Source: Candidatus Eiseniibacteriota bacterium
GTDB lineage: Bacteria; Eisenbacteria; RBG-16-71-46
Length of the DNA stretch: 64,000 nt
Assembly: GCA_035275545.1 (NCBI GenBank)
Contig: DATEMP010000272.1
Coordinates: 4,592-68,591 of the forward strand
Direction of reading: 5' to 3'
Below the pieces are notes generated by a model, which ran no database searches, was not told the DNA's origin, and saw nothing but the letters and a program-made list of their open reading frames with translations. This document shows, piece after piece, positions 12,467 to 31,557 of the stretch. Numbering within the stretch: the first letter of the stretch is position 1; every line of letters starts with the position of its first letter. The translations under genes were made by a program, and so were the position numbers.

Positions 12467-12542
12467 GCGCCGCTAGCTCAATTGGCAGAGCAACTGACTC
12501 TTAATCAGTAGGTTGAAGGTTCGATTCCTTCGCGGCGCACCA
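12467..12542 (+). tRNA. tRNA-Lys (anticodon CTT)
   Basis: Manual cloverleaf: acceptor stem GCGCCGC/GCGGCGC, D-arm GCTC...GAGC, anticodon stem ACTGA/TCAGT with loop CTCTTAA (anticodon CTT), T-arm GAAGG TTCGATT CCTTC, discriminator A, encoded CCA. Confidence 0.85.
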
Positions 12543-12548
12543 ACTTAC
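12492..12548 (+). repeat. attL (tRNA-Lys 3' half, 57 bp)
   Basis: Identical to 31501-31557. Confidence 0.8.
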
Positions 12549-12588
12549 ACGATCGGCCAACGGGCTCTGTGCCGTCTCGTGTGCGGAT

Positions 12589-13644
12589 TCAGCCCTCGGA
12601 AGTGCGCTTCCCGAGCCTCTCGACCGCCTCGTTCAGGTCCGCCTCAGAGGTGATGTTGTACCTGTCGAAGATCGCGCGAGTCTTGTGGCCCGTGAGCTTC
12701 ATCGCCACCCGCTCGTCGATGTTGGCCCGGACGAGGTTCCGCACGGCCGTACGCCGGAAGTCGTGGACCAACTTGCCGGGCAGCTTGGCCTCCTTACAGG
12801 CAGCCTCCCACGCCTTACGGAACGTGCCGAGTTGGCTACCGTCGCTGCGCGGAAAAAGCCACGGAGTGCCACTGGCGAGGGCCCGCTCGCACTGGCGGAC
12901 GATCAGGACTCGGAGGGCCGGGTGGGCTGCGAAGGGGAAGCTCCGAGGCTCCTCATTCTTCGTCTCCCCTCTGTGGAGCAAGACCCTCGCGTTCTCGAAG
13001 TCGATGTGCTCTCGCAAAGTCAGTTGCCGCACCTCGCCAACACGCCACCCCGTGATGTACATGAACTCGACCGCCGGCCGCAGGTCCTCGGGCAGATGCG
13101 TCAGAAGCCGCTCGAACTGGTCAGGCTCGAAGAAGCCCTGTCGGGCGTTGCGGACGACGACTGTCGGTAGCGGCGGGACCGTCGCGAGCAGTTCGGCCTC
13201 CACTGCGAGCCGACACATGCGCCCCCAGATGACGAGTTCGTAGCGCACTGTGGCCGGACGTGCGCCCTCGGCGAGACGAGTGGTCACGTACTCCTTCAGG
13301 AGCCGATGGCTCACATCCACTGGGCGTAGCCGCTTGAACGCCTTACGAAGGTGCTTCACGCGGCCGAGCATGTCCTTCGTGGACTTGCGCTCGTTCGTCT
13401 TGTAGTCGGCCTCGATGAGGCGGACGAGGTCGTCGAAGGTGGTGCGCTCAATCTGGGGCCCGAGGACACGGCGCTCGATGACTTCGGTCCGGCGCTTCTC
13501 CAGCAAGGCGAGGGCAAGCTGCTGGTCGGTGGAGTGAGAGGACTCCCGATACTCGCGCCCGTTCACCGTGAACCGGATGTACCACACGCCTCTCCGGCAA
13601 TAGACCGACCCGAGCTTGGCGTCCTTCTTCTTACGGCGTGCCAT
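12589..13644 (-). CDS. int: Tyrosine-type site-specific integrase
   Basis: From the internal ATG (MARRKKKDAKLGSVY) the product has the AP2-like N-terminus of phage integrases. The C-terminal catalytic region has HDFRRT, LGH and YNITSE (R...HxxR...Y). Confidence 0.9.
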   Translation of the reverse strand: MARRKKKDAKLGSVYCRRGVWYIRFTVNGREYRESSHSTDQQLALALLEKRRTEVIERRVLGPQIERTTFDDLVRLIEADYKTNERKSTKDMLGRVKHLRKAFKRLRPVDVSHRLLKEYVTTRLAEGARPATVRYELVIWGRMCRLAVEAELLATVPPLPTVVVRNARQGFFEPDQFERLLTHLPEDLRPAVEFMYITGWRVGEVRQLTLREHIDFENARVLLHRGETKNEEPRSFPFAAHPALRVLIVRQCERALASGTPWLFPRSDGSQLGTFRKAWEAACKEAKLPGKLVHDFRRTAVRNLVRANIDERVAMKLTGHKTRAIFDRYNITSEADLNEAVERLGKRTSEG

Positions 13645-13884
13645 GTGTACTCCCGTCGTGCAAGATGTCGAGCGCGCACGTCCGGGTGGCGTTGGGTGGT
13701 CCGTCAATTCTACCGTGACCTGCGAGTCGCGCGCGAGGGCGATCGTCATTCTGAGAGCATCTACGGCGGTCGATTCTCACGCTGCACCCCGCTTTCGCCA
13801 CTTTCGGTCTCATGACCCCTGTCATCGGCCGGTTGTGCGCGGGGCTCAAGGCCGGCCGGCCAGCGAGGGCAAGTCGCGCCCGGC

Positions 13885-14037
13885 TCATTCGATTGCCTCG
13901 GCGTAGATGAAGTCGGCGTTGGGGAAGTACTCGTGCATGGAGAGGAGTAGGTGCCCGACTCCCTGACGCGTGGACAGCCTCCAATCCATGCGCGGGTAGC
14001 CCGGTCGTACGATCGTGACGCGCCACGTGGGGCTCAC
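13885..14037 (-). CDS. Small hypothetical protein (50 aa, GTG start)
   Basis: The last of four co-oriented small ORFs linked by GTGA/ATG-TGA overlaps. It sits inside a longer PR-rich frame that looks spurious. Confidence 0.25.
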   Translation of the reverse strand: MSPTWRVTIVRPGYPRMDWRLSTRQGVGHLLLSMHEYFPNADFIYAEAIE

Positions 14038-14246
14038 GCTGCCTCCACGGTGAAGCCGTCTTCGCGCATCCCAGCCACGAGGTTGAGGACGTAGCGGGGC
14101 TCGACTGCCAGCGCGCCCCCGAACCAAGTTCCGTCCGTGTGCTCCTTGAGCCACGCGGTTGCAGCGGCCGTCAGCGGCCGGACAAGCACCACGCTCCCGT
14201 GGCCATCGACTCGGGCGTCCGTGCGCGCCTTGCGGCGGGCACTCAC
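14034..14246 (-). CDS. Small hypothetical protein (~70 aa, GTG start)
   Basis: Member of the coupled small-gene chain beside the integrase. No recognisable motif. Confidence 0.3.
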   Translation of the reverse strand: MSARRKARTDARVDGHGSVVLVRPLTAAATAWLKEHTDGTWFGGALAVEPRYVLNLVAGMREDGFTVEAA

Positions 14247-14503
14247 ATGGCCTCCGCGTCGTCGTGGTGCGAGTAGATGAGGAGCGTCCCAACCGGGAAA
14301 CCGATGCCGGGCGTGAGGGTGGAGGGTTCGGCAAGCCACGCGGCCAGCGCGGACACGTGCTCGGGGGACGTGGCGAAGACGGTCTCGACGGACCCGCCAA
14401 CCGAGGGAACTTCCCGAACGAAGGCCGCAGGGATGCCACGGTCAGCGGCAGCGCGGCCGGCGGCGAAGCGGTCACCCTTGGCGACAGCGGAGATGTAGGC
14501 CAC
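14243..14503 (-). CDS. Small hypothetical protein (86 aa)
   Basis: Member of the coupled small-gene chain. Confidence 0.35.
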   Translation of the reverse strand: MAYISAVAKGDRFAAGRAAADRGIPAAFVREVPSVGGSVETVFATSPEHVSALAAWLAEPSTLTPGIGFPVGTLLIYSHHDDAEAM

Positions 14504-14506
14504 GGG

Positions 14507-29899: not shown

Positions 29900-30090
29900 T
29901 GCGTACTCCTTTCTCCGGCCTCAGCGGCCGGCGTCTACACGCTGCTTGGTCTCTCGCCTCACGATGGAGATGGTGTCGCCGACCACCAGTACGACGAAGG
30001 CCAGTAGGAACAGCGCGGCCGGCGGCATGATGGTCGCGCACAGAACGGCGGCGGCCACCAGCGCTGCGGTTGAAGGGCTCACGCTCACGC

Positions 30091-30396
30091 CTACGCCTCG
30101 AAGACGTTCGGGTCGTTCGGGTCGTGGACGCCATGCATGAAGGGCACGACGCCACGCGGGCCCTTGTACCAGAGACGCCCCTTCCGGCCGCCCGCGATCG
30201 GGTTGCCCTCAGCACCTCGGCCGCCGGTGATGTGGCCCGGCGAAGAATCGCGAGGTGGCATGAAGCGCGCGTCACCCTCGATGGCGGACTTGGCCCGGCG
30301 CTGAAGCACTGCGAGGTCGACGCCCTCGACGGCCTTCTGGCGAGCACGGTATTCGTTGTCGCCGTCAGGCGGGGGAAGCGCGGGTCTGTCACTCAT
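30091..30396 (-). CDS. Hypothetical protein (101 aa)
   Basis: ATG-initiated ORF with decent coding look; no motif recognised. Confidence 0.35.
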   Translation of the reverse strand: MSDRPALPPPDGDNEYRARQKAVEGVDLAVLQRRAKSAIEGDARFMPPRDSSPGHITGGRGAEGNPIAGGRKGRLWYKGPRGVVPFMHGVHDPNDPNVFEA

Positions 30397-30573
30397 GGTC
30401 GTTACCTCCTGCTCGCCTTCGCGAGCGTGTGCCGCACGTTGCGGCTGGTTGTTCTGCGTTGGAGCACACCTACGTCTCGGTGGTGTTCGTGAGGGAGAAG
30501 TACGAGCCGAGGGGCTCGCTCAACGCGACCCGGGGTGGGCCGCCCTGCGCCTCGGGGAACGCGCGGGTTGTTG

Positions 30574-30813
30574 CTAGGCTGCTGTGGTCTGCCCCGCTGC
30601 CGCGATCGCGTTGGTGGACACGTCGCGGGCACGGCGGAGTTCTGCGCGGATCGCGACGACCGTGGCCGGGCGCACGAGATTGCCGTCGTAGGCGCGCTTG
30701 AGCGTCCGGTAGCTGATGCCGGTGAAGGCGGAGAAGCTGACGACGGACATACGGGTGGCAGCAAGGGTACGACGCATCTCGTCAGCAAGCCCTTCGATGG
30801 TGGAGGTGGTCAT
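30574..30813 (-). CDS. Putative HTH DNA-binding protein (excisionase/regulator-like)
   Basis: 79 aa; the segment FSAFTGISYRTLKRAYDG looks like a helix-turn-helix. Sits near attR. Confidence 0.35.
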   Translation of the reverse strand: MTTSTIEGLADEMRRTLAATRMSVVSFSAFTGISYRTLKRAYDGNLVRPATVVAIRAELRRARDVSTNAIAAAGQTTAA

Positions 30814-30917
30814 TGGGAGACCTCCGGTGTTGGGGGGAAAACAAGTAGACCCCGCCGCCGTGATGGCAGCCGGGCCGCTGATCGGGGACCGTGTGCTCTC
30901 GATCCGAGGTGATAACT

Positions 30918-31066
30918 ATACCACATCTGCGGGGCTTTAGGGGCTTCGCATTTGCAAAATCGACGGAGCCTTTGAAGACCTGTGCGAGTGGGACAGGTGA
31001 CCATGATACCACATCGCGCGCCCTTTAGGGGCTTCACAGTTGTCAAATCGACTAAGCCTTTGAAAT
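30918..31066. repeat. Two ~60-bp imperfect direct repeats (period 88 bp) inside the island right end
   Basis: Repeat 1 starts ATACCACATCTGCGGGGCTTTAGGGGCTTCGCATTTGCAAAATCGAC and repeat 2 starts ATACCACATCGCGCGCCCTTTAGGGGCTTCACAGTTGTCAAATCGAC. About 80% identity, in a ~700-bp non-coding, lower-GC stretch. Confidence 0.5.
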
Positions 31067-31500
31067 AAGATTCATATTTCGCCGGATCGCGCGACGCCTT
31101 AGTGGGACGACTGAGTCACTGACCTCCTCATCAGCACAAACGCCCCGGCCGCCAGTCCAACCCTCAGCAGCCCCCAGAACATGCAACCGTTCCCGGCTAT
31201 CTCGGGGACGATCGTGGCTACACGGGGCTGCAGCGTATCCTAGCGCGGGTTTACCGGGGTCCCAACGCTCCCCGCCTAGAATCACCAGCGAGGGCACCCG
31301 CTCCAGCGTGTGCCGTCTGGTGTGCGGGCTGGGTCACCGAGAACCAGGTCAGCGAGGCAGTCCGTGGCGGAGGCGCTGGTGCTCTTGAGGAGGAGCGAGG
31401 GACCGAGCTAGGGCGCTGAGTCCGCACACGATCCGGCACACGAAAGCGACCTGCGTGCGCCGCGCGTCAATCGCGCTCGGGACGAGGGTCGAGCCGCTGG

Positions 31501-31557
31501 AAACTGACTCTTAATCAGTAGGTTGAAGGTTCGATTCCTTCGCGGCGCACCAACTTA
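31501..31557 (+). repeat. attR (second copy of tRNA-Lys 3' half, 57 bp)
   Basis: Identical to 12492-12548; the preceding bases differ from the tRNA sequence. Confidence 0.8.

What the first reader, a model, noticed from the sequence alone, without database searches (positions are those of the whole stretch)
12467..31557. ~19 kb integrase-bearing island inserted in tRNA-Lys(CTT), bounded by a perfect 57-bp direct repeat
Positions 12492-12548 and 31501-31557 are identical, reading AACTGACTCTTAATCAGTAGGTTGAAGGTTCGATTCCTTCGCGGCGCACCAACTTAC. That stretch runs from tRNA position 26 to the CCA end plus 6 nt. A tyrosine integrase (12589..13644) lies immediately inside attL and is transcribed toward the tRNA, which is the classic tRNA-integrating element layout. 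The cargo is dominated by defence and maintenance genes with no phage structural genes, so this looks like a defence island or integrative element rather than a prophage.
Basis: seen in the sequence. Interest (0 to 1): 0.6.

Follow-up and report, generated by a model that had tools for sequence, protein, structure and literature searches.

The report
Integrase island inserted in tRNA-Lys gene
A 19-kb mobile-looking island carrying its own integrase, a replication helicase and anti-phage genes sits inside a lysine tRNA gene of an uncultured soil bacterium (Candidatus Eisenbacteria); this is a textbook kind of insertion, and the same tRNA turns out to be a busy landing site for related elements.

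Summary
tRNA-Lys(CTT) is at 12467-12542. The second copy is not a tRNA gene.

The 18,953 bp between the repeats hold:
- an intact tyrosine integrase 40 nt inside attL, convergent with the tRNA;
- three copies of a 20-nt candidate integrase arm site at the two ends;
- a RepA (IncQ)-like helicase, an HTH regulator, and repeats next to the most AT-rich 50 nt of the window;
- a type III-like restriction-modification pair and a SIR2-family gene.

I found no capsid, terminase, relaxase or conjugation genes. The island is compositionally distinct (GC 64.6%, GC3 0.83 against 0.92 in the left flank).

The host is a Candidatus Eisenbacteria MAG. No clean empty site was found. A related contig does place tRNA-Lys 1.1 kb from the window's right-flank gene without the island. 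An 85%-identical integrase module carries different cargo elsewhere.

The same tRNA is an integration hot spot. Decayed att copies lie at 51.1 and 58.9/60.4 kb, and many metagenome contigs carry integrase-less cassettes bounded by tRNA-Lys halves.

Verdict: a real, ordinary tRNA-integrated genomic island, tycheposon- or PICI-like in layout. It is a new member of a known kind.

The parts
12467..12542 (+). Intact tRNA-Lys(CTT) gene. Its 3' 51 nt are supplied by the island side of attL.
   Evidence: ARAGORN; Rfam RF00005, 73.8 bits
12492..12548 (+). attL core: the 57-bp direct repeat, from tRNA position 26 to CCA plus ACTTAC
   Evidence: the repeat finder family D2, 100% identity; sequence read
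12568..12587 (+). Candidate integrase arm site in the P' arm: TGTGCCGTCTCGTGTGCGGA, two TGTGC[CG]G boxes 11 nt apart, 20 nt from the core
   Evidence: 20-mer search gave 3 hits against 0.01 expected. The same motif follows the 85%-identical integrase in L085. Homology with L085 ends exactly here.
12589..13644 (-). Tyrosine integrase, 351 aa. The R...HxxR...Y residues are visible: TGWRVGE, HDFRR, DRY.
   Evidence: Pfam PF00589 E 1.4e-21; phrog_1 E 1.7e-48; translation; identical to an NCBI Eisenbacteria MAG protein
13885..14866 (-). Four small ORFs upstream of int in the same operon: 50, 70 and 86 aa, and a 119-aa Kyano_Gp96-like protein. This is a conserved integrase-proximal module; an excisionase may be among them (not shown).
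   Evidence: Gene calls; PF23790 E 5.8e-7; about 79% nt identity to the L085 module
15497..18484 (+). Restriction endonuclease/helicase subunit (Res), BPTD_3080 family, 995 aa
   Evidence: NCBIfam NF046055, 1199 bits against a cut-off of 800; Pfam ResIII; PADLOC REase_III
18495..21203 (+). Type III-like N6/N4 DNA methyltransferase (Mod), 902 aa
   Evidence: PADLOC PDLC03632 MTase_III E 4.7e-262; Pfam N6_N4_Mtase E 1.4e-29
21491..24521 (+). SIR2_2-domain protein (345 aa) followed by three unannotated ORFs of 218, 208 and 224 aa; the first overlaps SIR2 by 4 nt. Putative defence operon.
   Evidence: Pfam SIR2_2 E 6.8e-9; PADLOC generic SIR2 E 2.6e-10; partners have no hits; neighbourhoods
24607..25437 (-). 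Putative lipoprotein with an Ig-like domain, 276 aa (cargo, function unknown)
   Evidence: Weak Pfam and NCBIfam Ig-like/choice-of-anchor D hits, below cut-off
25585..27508 (-). Distal genes of the minus-strand operon that begins at the HTH gene: 188, 118, 65 (cold-shock/OB domain), 96 and 155 aa
   Evidence: Pfam CSD/OB_RNB for 26336-26533; the others have no hits; gene calls
27611..29152 (-). RepA (IncQ/RSF1010)-like hexameric helicase family protein, 513-524 aa; presumed replication protein of the element
   Evidence: Pfam AAA_25 E 2.2e-21; PDB 1g8y RepA E 4.6e-9; about 30% identity to plasmid RepA helicases; PHROGs primase/helicase families
29409..30813 (-). Start of the same operon: an HTH regulator (30574-30813, 79 aa), small ORFs of 101, 55 and 50-78 aa, and an HNH-like protein (29409-29741)
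   Evidence: phrog_4583 transcriptional repressor E 4e-4; phrog_374 HNH endonuclease E 1.9e-17; gene calls
30907..31079 (.). Two 70-nt direct repeats (30907-30976 and 30995-31064, 77% identical) abutting the most AT-rich 50 nt of the whole window (31030-31079, 34% GC). Candidate replication origin and/or promoter-operator region (inferred).
   Evidence: the repeat finder family D1; AT-richness scan
31309..31440 (.). Two further copies of the 20-nt arm motif in the P arm: 31309-31328 (2 mismatches, same orientation as the P' copy) and 31421-31440 (exact, inverted)
31502..31558 (+). attR core: second copy of the 57-bp repeat. The tRNA 5' half is absent.
51099..51196 (+). Decayed att copy from another, very common element family ('B'): a conserved arm plus the tRNA-Lys 3' half, with 2 mismatches and a 7-nt deletion. 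It marks an older integration at the same tRNA.
   Evidence: nhmmer E 1.5e-24 against a profile of 27 metagenome copies
58930..60440 (+). Split remnant of a further B-type att: arm at 58930-58976 and core end CTTCGCGGCGCACCA at 60423-60437 (the nhmmer hit runs 60423-60467), flanking a DUF805/SRPBCC gene
   Evidence: nhmmer E 1.1e-8 and 0.004; sequence; Pfam

Best explanation
This is a site-specific integrative genomic island of 19,010 bp (repeat start to repeat start) in a Candidatus Eisenbacteria genome. A circular form carrying an attP with the 3' 51 nt of tRNA-Lys(CTT) plus 6 nt recombined with the chromosomal tRNA gene, catalysed by the island's own lambda-type tyrosine integrase. The crossover lay somewhere inside the 57-bp identity block, which starts in the anticodon stem. 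Integration rebuilt an intact tRNA at attL and left a 3'-half copy at attR. Paired TGTGC[CG]G boxes at both ends are the likely integrase arm sites. After excision the element probably replicates using its RepA-like helicase and the repeat/AT-rich region next to attR. The cargo is a type III-like restriction-modification system, a SIR2-family putative defence operon and unannotated genes. It has no capsid or conjugation genes, so cell-to-cell transfer must depend on something else (helper phage, vesicles or transformation). Shown here: the anatomy, the gene identities, the compositional foreignness, and recurrence of the integrase module with other cargo. Inferred: excision, replication, the current activity of the element and its transfer route.
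For: - A perfect 57-bp repeat made of the tRNA 3' part, with only one real tRNA.
- An intact integrase with catalytic residues, adjacent to attL.
- A 20-nt motif occurs 3 times, only at the island ends, against 0.01 expected.
- Composition: island GC 0.646 and GC3 0.83, against GC 0.70 and GC3 0.92 in the left flank. Tetranucleotide correlation of the island with flanks B, C and D is 0.91-0.93, while those three correlate at 0.97 among themselves.
- attR is perfect, whereas the older att copies at 51.1 and 58.9/60.4 kb are decayed. This argues for a recent event.
- L085 carries an 85%-identical integrase with the same small-gene module and arm motif at about 80% nt identity, but unrelated cargo and a different neighbouring tRNA. 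The homology stops exactly at the arm motif.
- L157 has a 41-46% identical integrase in the same convergent position at an identical tRNA-Lys.
- At least 25 related contigs carry the identical tRNA-Lys with widely different downstream DNA.
- L176 puts tRNA-Lys 1.1 kb from a roughly 90%-identical homologue of the window's right-flank gene, without the 19 kb.
- RepA-like helicase.
- No phage structural, relaxase or T4SS families detected.
Against: No true empty site and no attP junction was recovered. GTDB representatives are too distant and show no synteny. Exact junction searches of JGI metagenomes and IMG/VR gave nothing. All three public copies appear to come from one sample or population. 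No excisionase was identified. About half the ORFs have no annotation, so hidden transfer or packaging functions cannot be excluded. The replication origin is inferred from repeats and AT content only. The 19,013-bp Logan contig is just a k=31 unitig broken at the repeat and is not evidence of a circle.
Confidence: 0.85

Rival explanations
1. It is a phage satellite (PICI-, P4- or 'PICI-like tycheposon'-type). It would excise and replicate when a helper phage infects and be packaged into the helper's capsids. Its restriction-modification and SIR2 genes would occupy a cargo hot spot, as in P4-like satellites.
For: The size (19 kb) fits. So does the layout: an integrase, a replication helicase, an HTH regulator at the head of a long one-directional operon of small unknown ORFs, an HNH-like protein (phrog_374) and no structural genes. 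Several hits are to phage protein families (Kyano_Gp96, PHROGs primase/helicase).
Against: No small terminase, capsid-remodelling, cos/pac or other hijacking gene was recognised. The helicase has no tblastn match in 50,697 phage records. The integrase has only relatives of 42% identity or less in IMG/VR, and the att core is absent there. No helper is known for Eisenbacteria.
Confidence: 0.2
2. It is a fixed, no-longer-mobile island: it integrated once and is now simply inherited. The repeats and integrase are relics.
For: No excised form or empty site was found. No excisionase was recognised. The neighbouring region shows that elements at this tRNA do decay in place.
Against: attR is under no tRNA-function constraint yet is 57/57 identical. 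The integrase ORF is full length with its catalytic residues, and the arm motifs are intact. The older copies nearby show what decay looks like here: 2 mismatches plus a 7-nt deletion, and a split copy.
Confidence: 0.2
3. It is the remnant of a temperate prophage that has lost its structural module.
For: The integrase belongs to the broad phage-integrase family (phrog_1). A few genes hit phage families.
Against: Not one structural, lysis or packaging hit among about 26 ORFs. The repeats are perfect and the boundaries clean, which would be unlikely after large internal deletions. The replication gene is plasmid-type RepA.
Confidence: 0.05
4. It is an assembly or binning artefact: two different genomes sharing the tRNA-Lys sequence were joined at the repeat.
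For: The identical tRNA-Lys occurs in many co-existing organisms, and short-k assemblies break there.
Against: An independent megahit contig (final k 141, longer than the 57-bp repeat) spans both junctions with the same gene order. The immediate tRNA upstream region and the right-flank gene both have homologues next to tRNA-Lys in relatives.
Confidence: 0.03

Closest known systems
Tycheposons (Prochlorococcus; Hackl et al., bioRxiv 10.1101/2020.12.28.424599, later Cell 2023)
   Same: They are 10-20 kb elements with a tyrosine recombinase, often an autonomous replication module (primase/helicase) and cargo. They lack capsid and conjugation genes. They integrate at tRNA genes and are flanked by partial tRNAs. 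Newer elements push older ones further into the island, and partial tRNAs and degenerate remnants are scattered through the island (paper text). All of this matches the window: island 1 plus the decayed copies at 51.1 and 58.9/60.4 kb.
   Different: The phylum and habitat differ (soil Eisenbacteria). The cargo here is defence, not nutrient acquisition. Membership is defined by shared hallmark gene families, which I could not test. The RepA/AAA_25 helicase here has only two close relatives in 5.8 billion proteins.
Phage-inducible chromosomal islands (PICIs/SaPIs) and P4-like satellites with defence hot spots
   Same: Integrase at one end, a regulator, a replication helicase with an adjacent repeat-containing candidate origin, a size of 10-20 kb, and defence genes as cargo.
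   Different: No terS, capsid-morphogenesis, cos or psu/sid-like genes were detected, no helper is known, and the helicase has no phage homologue.
Classical tRNA-associated genomic islands with lambda-type integrases (anticodon-loop sublocation class of Williams 2002; recalled from my own knowledge, not read here)
   Same: The identity block runs from the anticodon stem-loop to the 3' end of the tRNA. int is adjacent to attL and convergent with the tRNA, and the tRNA is restored by element DNA.
   Different: None in principle; this is the category it belongs to. The P arm seems to keep a diverged copy of the tRNA 5' half as well (GCGCCGC at 31459-31465). This is a minor curiosity.
CIMEs (cis-mobilisable elements) and tandem accretion at ICE att sites; integron cassette arrays
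   Same: These compare with the integrase-less 1-5.5 kb cassettes at this tRNA in metagenomes. Each cassette is bounded by att cores and keeps both arm regions, and they sometimes lie in tandem.
   Different: No conjugative element is involved. Unlike in integrons, the repeated site is a tRNA half plus a roughly 200-nt arm, and usually no integrase sits beside the array.
Type III restriction-modification systems (BPTD_3080-family Res plus Mod)
   Same: The Res protein exceeds the NCBIfam equivalog cut-off (1199 against 800 bits). Mod matches a PADLOC type III methyltransferase model at 870 bits. The two genes are adjacent and co-directional.
   Different: The order is res then mod, where classical type III systems have mod then res (own knowledge). 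Activity and specificity are unknown.

Membership tests
tRNA-integrated tyrosine-integrase genomic island | Tyrosine recombinase with a complete catalytic domain | tested here: met
   PF00589 E 1.4e-21 covering profile positions 3-166 of 172. R (TGWRVGE), HxxR (HDFRR) and Y (DRY) are visible in the translation.
tRNA-integrated tyrosine-integrase genomic island | Direct repeats made of the tRNA 3' part bound the element, with one intact tRNA and one partial copy | tested here: met
   57/57 identity at 12492-12548 and 31502-31558; a single ARAGORN tRNA
tRNA-integrated tyrosine-integrase genomic island | Repeated arm-type sites flank the core on the element side | tested here: met
   The 20-nt motif occurs 3 times, all within 200 nt of the cores, against 0.01 expected. 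It is conserved next to the related integrase in L085. Binding itself was not tested.
tRNA-integrated tyrosine-integrase genomic island | Composition differs from the host chromosome | tested here: met
   GC 0.646 against 0.67-0.70. GC3 0.83 against 0.92 (left flank) and 0.86 (right end); segment 31.6-51.1 kb is as low as the island, at 0.82. The island has the lowest tetranucleotide correlation with the other segments.
tRNA-integrated tyrosine-integrase genomic island | Empty attB in relatives, or an excised attP form | tested here: inconclusive
   No exact empty site or attP was found. Indirect support comes from L176, which has tRNA-Lys 1.1 kb from the right-flank gene homologue, and from many relatives with other DNA after the same tRNA.
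Prophage | Capsid, portal, tail, terminase and lysis genes | tested here: not met
   No such PHROGs or Pfam hit in about 26 ORFs
Integrative conjugative / mobilisable element (ICE/IME) | Relaxase, coupling protein, T4SS or an FtsK-like translocase | tested here: not met
   No such Pfam family among the ORFs scanned. Unannotated ORFs leave some room, and no oriT could be searched for.
PICI / phage satellite | Integrase plus a replication module plus a master regulator | tested here: met
   int, RepA-like helicase and HTH regulator
PICI / phage satellite | Packaging or helper-hijacking genes (terS, capsid-size redirection, cos/pac) and helper-dependent induction | tested here: not met
   No hits. 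Induction is not testable with these tools.
Tycheposon | Shares the tycheposon hallmark gene families (integrase, replication and excisionase profiles of Hackl et al.) | not testable with these tools
   The profiles are not available here. Only the architecture could be compared.
Type III restriction-modification system | Adjacent Res (helicase plus nuclease) and Mod (N6/N4 methyltransferase) genes | tested here: met
   NF046055 1199 bits; PDLC03632 870 bits; the genes are 10 nt apart on the same strand
Known SIR2 defence systems (Thoeris, DSR1/2, SIR2-HerA, SIR2-APAZ/pAgo) | SIR2 domain together with the system's partner (TIR ThsB and a SLOG domain, a large DSR architecture, HerA, or pAgo) | tested here: not met
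   Only generic SIR2 models hit (E 2.6e-10). No TIR, HerA, pAgo or SLOG is present in the neighbours, and the three downstream ORFs have no family.

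The most novel reading that the evidence does not exclude
The island may be the only autonomous member, in this window, of a wider system. In that system tRNA-Lys(CTT) of Eisenbacteria serves as a shared docking site, and integrase-less gene cassettes are captured, stacked and re-mobilised in trans by integrases of this family. Each cassette is 1-5.5 kb and retains a tRNA-half core, a P'-arm with phased TGTCCCG boxes, and a roughly 200-nt P-arm with a hairpin and phased boxes. This would be a tRNA-anchored cassette-exchange platform, functionally analogous to an integron, that builds the more than 45 kb of accessory DNA downstream of this tRNA.
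Probability: 0.2. Interest if true: 0.6.

Novelty: new member of a known kind. Interest (0 to 1): 0.3.

Why it matters
On its own this is a routine example of how bacteria acquire defence genes: a self-integrating island lands in a tRNA gene. Its modest value lies in three points. First, it is a cleanly delimited, apparently intact mobile element in Candidatus Eisenbacteria, an uncultured phylum; a full-text search found no paper mentioning both the phylum and integrases. Second, it gives exact attL, attR, and predicted attB and attP sequences, plus an integrase with candidate arm sites, which could be tested or used as a genetic tool. Third, it shows that in soil bacteria the tRNA-Lys(CTT) locus behaves like the tRNA-linked islands described for marine Prochlorococcus, with serial integrations, decayed att scars and integrase-less cassettes. 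The SIR2 operon and the rare RepA-like helicase are unannotated leads for defence and replication biology.

Tried and rejected
- **Empty site via the left-flank MFS gene.** I scanned 185,579 species genomes. The 80 loci kept were 58-80% identical, mostly Eisenbacteria and Verrucomicrobiota. The 36 I scanned for tRNAs (the top 35 plus L077) have no tRNA-Lys beside the gene and no synteny with the window.
- **Exact-protein look-ups.** The integrase, the MFS protein and the Rce1-like protein returned only the same ENA assembly and Logan run, so no strain variation is accessible.
- **Exact junction searches.** The attR/right-flank junction gave 0 hits in JGI metagenomes. The attR/attP left junction and the att core gave 0 hits in IMG/VR.
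- **The 19,013-bp Logan contig.** I first took it as a possible circle, then rejected that. Its ends (window 12519 and 31531) are exactly where a k=31 unitig must break at a 57-bp repeat. The flank contigs behave the same way.
- **Host phylum.** An actinobacterial AICE was my first guess from the high GC. It was rejected once the organism proved to be Eisenbacteria and no FtsK/Tra or RepSA genes were found.
- **Second island at 31.6-51.1 kb.** I considered this stretch a complete second island. It has no integrase and its tetranucleotide usage is host-like, so I treat it as old, ameliorated accretion.
- **B-type repeat as an RNA gene.** RNAalifold draws a tRNA-like fold, but only the upstream hairpin shows compensatory changes, and ARAGORN calls none of the copies.
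- **SIR2 plus partner as a fixed two-gene system.** The downstream partner is present in 3 of 5 neighbourhoods. The one partner pair I compared is only 17% identical. The claim is not established.
- **The far end of the related island in L085.** I could not reach it, because look-ups are limited to window proteins or returned homologues, and the helicase has no homologue there.

Full report
**1. Observation**

The window contains one tRNA gene, tRNA-Lys(CTT), at 12467-12542 on the + strand (Rfam 73.8 bits). A 57-nt stretch at 12492-12548 recurs without a mismatch at 31502-31558 (read directly). Everything else in the description is exact:
- The repeat starts at tRNA position 26, in the anticodon stem, and runs through CCA plus ACTTAC.
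- The second copy lacks the 5' half. ARAGORN does not call it, and Rfam gives only a weak partial hit of 38 bits.
- A 25-nt piece of the repeat is expected 0.00 times by chance.

**2. Host and source**

The integrase is identical to a protein of an NCBI 'MAG TPA: Candidatus Eisenbacteria bacterium' on a 90-kb contig. The left-flank MFS gene has its best relatives (58-80% identity) mostly in Eisenbacteria and Verrucomicrobiota MAGs.

The same DNA occurs in an ENA megahit assembly (ERZ27257057, contig k141_2159446, 54.5 kb), which spans both junctions in the same gene order. It also occurs in Logan unitigs of SRR5195143. The Logan contigs end at window positions 12519, 31531 and 31529. Those are exactly the k=31 break points at a 57-bp repeat, so the 19,013-bp Logan contig says nothing about a circular form.

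**3. Anatomy of the island (12549-31501)**

Left end:
- The integrase gene (12589-13644, -, 351 aa) lies 40 nt inside attL. It matches PF00589 (E 1.4e-21) and phrog_1 (E 1.7e-48), and its R, HxxR and Y residues are visible.
- It is the last gene of a minus-strand operon of four small ORFs: 50, 70 and 86 aa, and a 119-aa Kyano_Gp96-like protein.

Plus-strand cargo block:
- A BPTD_3080-family restriction endonuclease (NCBIfam 1199 bits, cut-off 800).
- A type III methyltransferase (PADLOC 870 bits).
- An 81-aa ORF.
- A SIR2_2-domain protein, followed by three ORFs of 218, 208 and 224 aa with no family.

Minus-strand genes:
- A putative lipoprotein.
- A long minus-strand operon that starts near attR. 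It holds an HTH regulator (phrog_4583), several tiny ORFs, an HNH-like protein (phrog_374), a 513-524-aa AAA_25 protein, and five more small proteins including a cold-shock/OB-fold protein.
- The AAA_25 protein resembles the RSF1010 RepA hexameric helicase (PDB 1g8y, E 4.6e-9). It is about 30% identical to plasmid RepA helicases over the ATPase core.

Between that operon and attR lie two 70-nt direct repeats (30907-30976 and 30995-31064). Beside them is the most AT-rich 50 nt of the entire 64-kb window (31030-31079, 34% GC). I read this as a candidate origin and/or control region; that is inference only.

No capsid, portal, tail, terminase, lysis, relaxase or T4SS family was detected in about 26 ORFs.

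**4. Recombination sites**

A 20-nt motif, TGTGCCGnnnnGTGTGCGG (two TGTGC[CG]G boxes 11 nt apart), occurs three times in the window against 0.01 expected. All three copies lie at the island ends:
- 12568-12587, 20 nt from the attL core;
- 31421-31440, inverted, 62 nt before the attR core;
- 31309-31328, with 2 mismatches.

The same motif directly follows the stop codon of an 85%-identical integrase on a JGI contig (L085). Nucleotide homology between the two elements (about 80% over int and the small-gene module) ends exactly at this motif. This is the pattern expected of integrase arm-type sites. Binding itself was not tested.

**5. Foreignness and age**

The island has 64.6% GC, against 67-70% in the four surrounding segments. 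Mean gene GC3 values are:
- island: 0.83;
- genes left of the tRNA: 0.92;
- right end: 0.86;
- segment 31.6-51.1 kb: 0.82, as low as the island.

The island's tetranucleotide spectrum correlates at 0.91-0.93 with flank segments B, C and D, while those three correlate at 0.97 among themselves.

attR is under no selection for tRNA function, yet it is 57/57 identical. Other att copies further downstream are visibly decayed (section 7). The insertion is therefore probably recent.

**6. Search for an empty site**

This was only partly successful.
- Species-representative genomes are too distant. The MFS gene is never next to a tRNA-Lys in the 36 loci checked, and nothing else is syntenic.
- Exact-junction searches in JGI metagenomes and IMG/VR gave nothing.
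In at least 25 of them the identical tRNA-Lys lies about 200-300 nt downstream of the AspRS-HisRS-VanZ block that occupies window 1-3300. The DNA after the tRNA differs from contig to contig.
- One contig (L176) has the tRNA-Lys, then a 190-nt spacer, a partial tRNA copy, one gene, and then a roughly 90%-identical homologue of the 3' end of the window's Rce1-like gene. That gene begins 190 nt after attR in the window. In this relative the tRNA and the right-flank gene are 1.1 kb apart; in the window they are 19.2 kb apart.
- L157 carries a 41-46%-identical integrase in the same convergent position beside the identical tRNA.

Together these results support insertion by site-specific recombination at a variable locus.

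**7. The locus is an integration hot spot**

A third copy of the tRNA 3' half lies at 51148-51186, with 2 mismatches and a 7-nt deletion.

Its upstream arm (from 51099) belongs to a repeat family I call B, which is abundant in the metagenome hits. The family consists of a conserved region more than 150 nt long followed by the tRNA half from the anticodon loop to CCA plus ACTTA. I aligned 31 extracted sequences (30 metagenome copies plus the window's copy). A profile of 27 of them scores the window copy at E 1.5e-24. The same profile finds:
- an arm-only fragment at 58930-58976 (E 1e-8);
- the core end CTTCGCGGCGCACCA at 60423-60437, within a weak hit spanning 60423-60467 (E 0.004). The two pieces flank a DUF805/SRPBCC gene.

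In the metagenome contigs, B copies lie 1-5.5 kb after an intact tRNA-Lys or after one another (three in L101, two each in L169 and L123). The segments between them hold no integrase. They carry unrelated cargo, judged by eye from ORF translations: secreted proteins, two toxin-antitoxin-like pairs, an oxidase and a hydrolase.

Many copies, whether full or partial, are followed after about 25 nt by two phased TGTCCCGTTTT boxes. The B arm itself contains:
- a hairpin, ACGGGAC...GTCCCGTTTT, in which three pairs show compensatory changes;
- three phased GT[CA]CCC or [AG]TGCCC boxes, falling into two co-varying sub-types.

This is the layout of attL and attR arms of a related element family. It matches the description of tRNA-linked islands in Prochlorococcus: serial integrations push older elements inward, and partial tRNAs and degraded elements are scattered through the island.

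The genes at 31.6-51.1 kb and beyond are accessory. They include a CAAX protease, an M54 peptidase, an APH, AraC regulators, esterases, DinB, SRPBCC proteins, T9SS-tailed secreted proteins and a beta-lactamase-fold protein. There is no integrase, and tetranucleotide usage is host-like. I regard this stretch as old, ameliorated accretion, not as part of the finding.

**8. Mechanism, and what is shown versus inferred**

Shown:
- the att structure;
- an intact integrase;
- conserved end motifs;
- a helicase of the plasmid RepA family;
- restriction-modification and SIR2 cargo;
- compositional distinctness;
- reuse of the integrase module with other cargo at another site.

Inferred:
- the island excises as a circle (attP = P arm + 57 nt + P' arm);
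- it replicates from the repeat/AT-rich region with its helicase;
- one of the small ORFs next to int is an excisionase;
- transfer depends on an outside vehicle.

I put 0.85 on 'integrase-mediated integrative island' and about 0.5 on 'still mobile and replicative'. I put about 0.2 on the more specific reading that it is a helper-phage-dependent satellite.

**9. Comparison with known systems**

In kind, this is a classical tRNA-integrated genomic island of the anticodon-loop sublocation class. In architecture (integrase + replication module + cargo, no capsid, no conjugation genes, tandem remnants) it is closest to tycheposons and PICI-like elements. I could not test tycheposon membership, which is defined by shared hallmark families, and the satellite-defining packaging genes were not found.

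The restriction-modification pair is a member of a known family. The SIR2 gene does not fit Thoeris, DSR, SIR2-HerA or SIR2-pAgo architectures. Its family is widespread (725 homologues with E <= 1e-5), and members sit both in defence islands beside type I R-M, Dnd or AAA_15/21 genes and alone. Its 200-218-aa downstream partner is present in only 3 of 5 neighbourhoods examined, so a fixed system is not established.

**10. Verdict**

The feature is real but ordinary: a new member of a known kind in a little-studied phylum. The more interesting by-product is the population of integrase-less, arm-bearing cassettes at the same tRNA across soil metagenomes. That deserves its own follow-up.

Noticed in passing
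window 51099-51196: A third, decayed copy of the tRNA-Lys 3' half (2 mismatches, 7-nt deletion). It is preceded by a conserved arm (GGGCGACAATCGCTTCGTG...) that matches dozens of metagenome copies. About 45 nt downstream lies a P'-like pair of CGTCCC[GA] boxes. It marks an older integration of a different, very common element family.
   Followed up: yes
window 58930-58976 and 60423-60440: A split remnant of the same repeat family: the arm fragment and the last 15 nt of the tRNA (CTTCGCGGCGCACCA) lie on either side of a DUF805/SRPBCC gene (58866-60401, -). Homologues of that gene sit near tRNA-Lys copies in L095 and L117.
   Followed up: partly
L101, L169, L123, L209, L135, L122, L160, L109 (metagenome loci): Integrase-less cassettes of 1-5.5 kb, sometimes in tandem. 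Each ends with a conserved arm of more than 150 nt plus a tRNA-Lys 3' half. Cargo is unrelated from cassette to cassette (secreted proteins, toxin-antitoxin-like pairs, oxidase, hydrolase). The arms carry phased GT[CA]CCC or [AG]TGCCC boxes in two co-varying sub-types, and a hairpin with compensatory changes.
   Followed up: partly
window 3405-12370: About 9 kb (flippase-like Polysacc_synt_3, GT4 glycosyltransferase, two small ORFs, a 986-aa T9SS-tailed protein, a 5'-3' exonuclease, a BT1/MFS transporter) lies between VanZ and tRNA-Lys. In at least 25 related contigs the tRNA follows AspRS-HisRS-VanZ within about 300 nt. The composition of this block is host-like (GC3 0.92).
   Followed up: partly
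L085 11057-11209; L086 10992-11155 and 12323-12358; L176 1-600; L142 4263-4678: Relatives of the integrase, including the 85%-identical one, lie upstream of and co-directional with a complete tRNA (tRNA-Ala(GGC) or tRNA-Lys). That is the opposite geometry to the window. In L086 a 36-nt tRNA-Ala 3' repeat lies 1.2 kb downstream. The far ends of these elements could not be reached.
   Followed up: partly
window 31456-31501 (and the B-arm consensus): The P arm next to the attR core contains the exact tRNA 5' acceptor strand GCGCCGC (31459-31465) and GCGTCAATCGC, which resembles the D-arm GCTCAATTGGC. B copies have GCGTTGC...GACAATCGC, and RNAalifold folds them tRNA-like. attP may descend from a whole tRNA-Lys copy whose 5' half has drifted. 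ARAGORN calls none of them.
   Followed up: partly
window 30907-31079: Two 70-nt direct repeats (77% identical) lie next to the most AT-rich 50 nt of the whole 64-kb window (34% GC), between the HTH-led operon and attR. This is a candidate replication origin or operator region for the RepA-like helicase.
   Followed up: partly
window 21491-23181; L089 10001-11682; the P0125 contig: The SIR2_2 gene (about 340-360 aa) is followed by a roughly 200-218-aa ORF in 3 of 5 neighbourhoods; the overlap is 4 nt in the window and in L089. The one partner pair compared is only 17% identical, and other homologues are solo or have an upstream partner. The SIR2 family has at least 725 members and is often found next to R-M, Dnd or AAA_15/21 genes.
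   Followed up: partly
window 27611-29185: The RepA/AAA_25 helicase-like protein has only two relatives (63-66% identical, on short JGI contigs) in the word-indexed search of 5.8 billion proteins. It has none in 50,697 phage records.
   Followed up: partly
Logan contigs of SRR5195143 (L002, L084, L227): The contig ends fall exactly at k-1 = 30 nt into the 57-bp repeat or at the tRNA start. A 19,013-bp contig that looks island-sized is a de Bruijn unitig artefact, not a circular molecule.
   Followed up: yes
window 6990-9950 (-), 52220-54967 (-), 57174-58820 (-), 49064-51037 (-), 37308-38147 (+): Several large secreted proteins with Por_Secre_tail or FlgD_ig C-terminal domains (T9SS-type sorting signals) are scattered around the tRNA-Lys locus. 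Their C-terminal domains cross-match among themselves and with cassette cargo in the metagenome loci.
   Followed up: no
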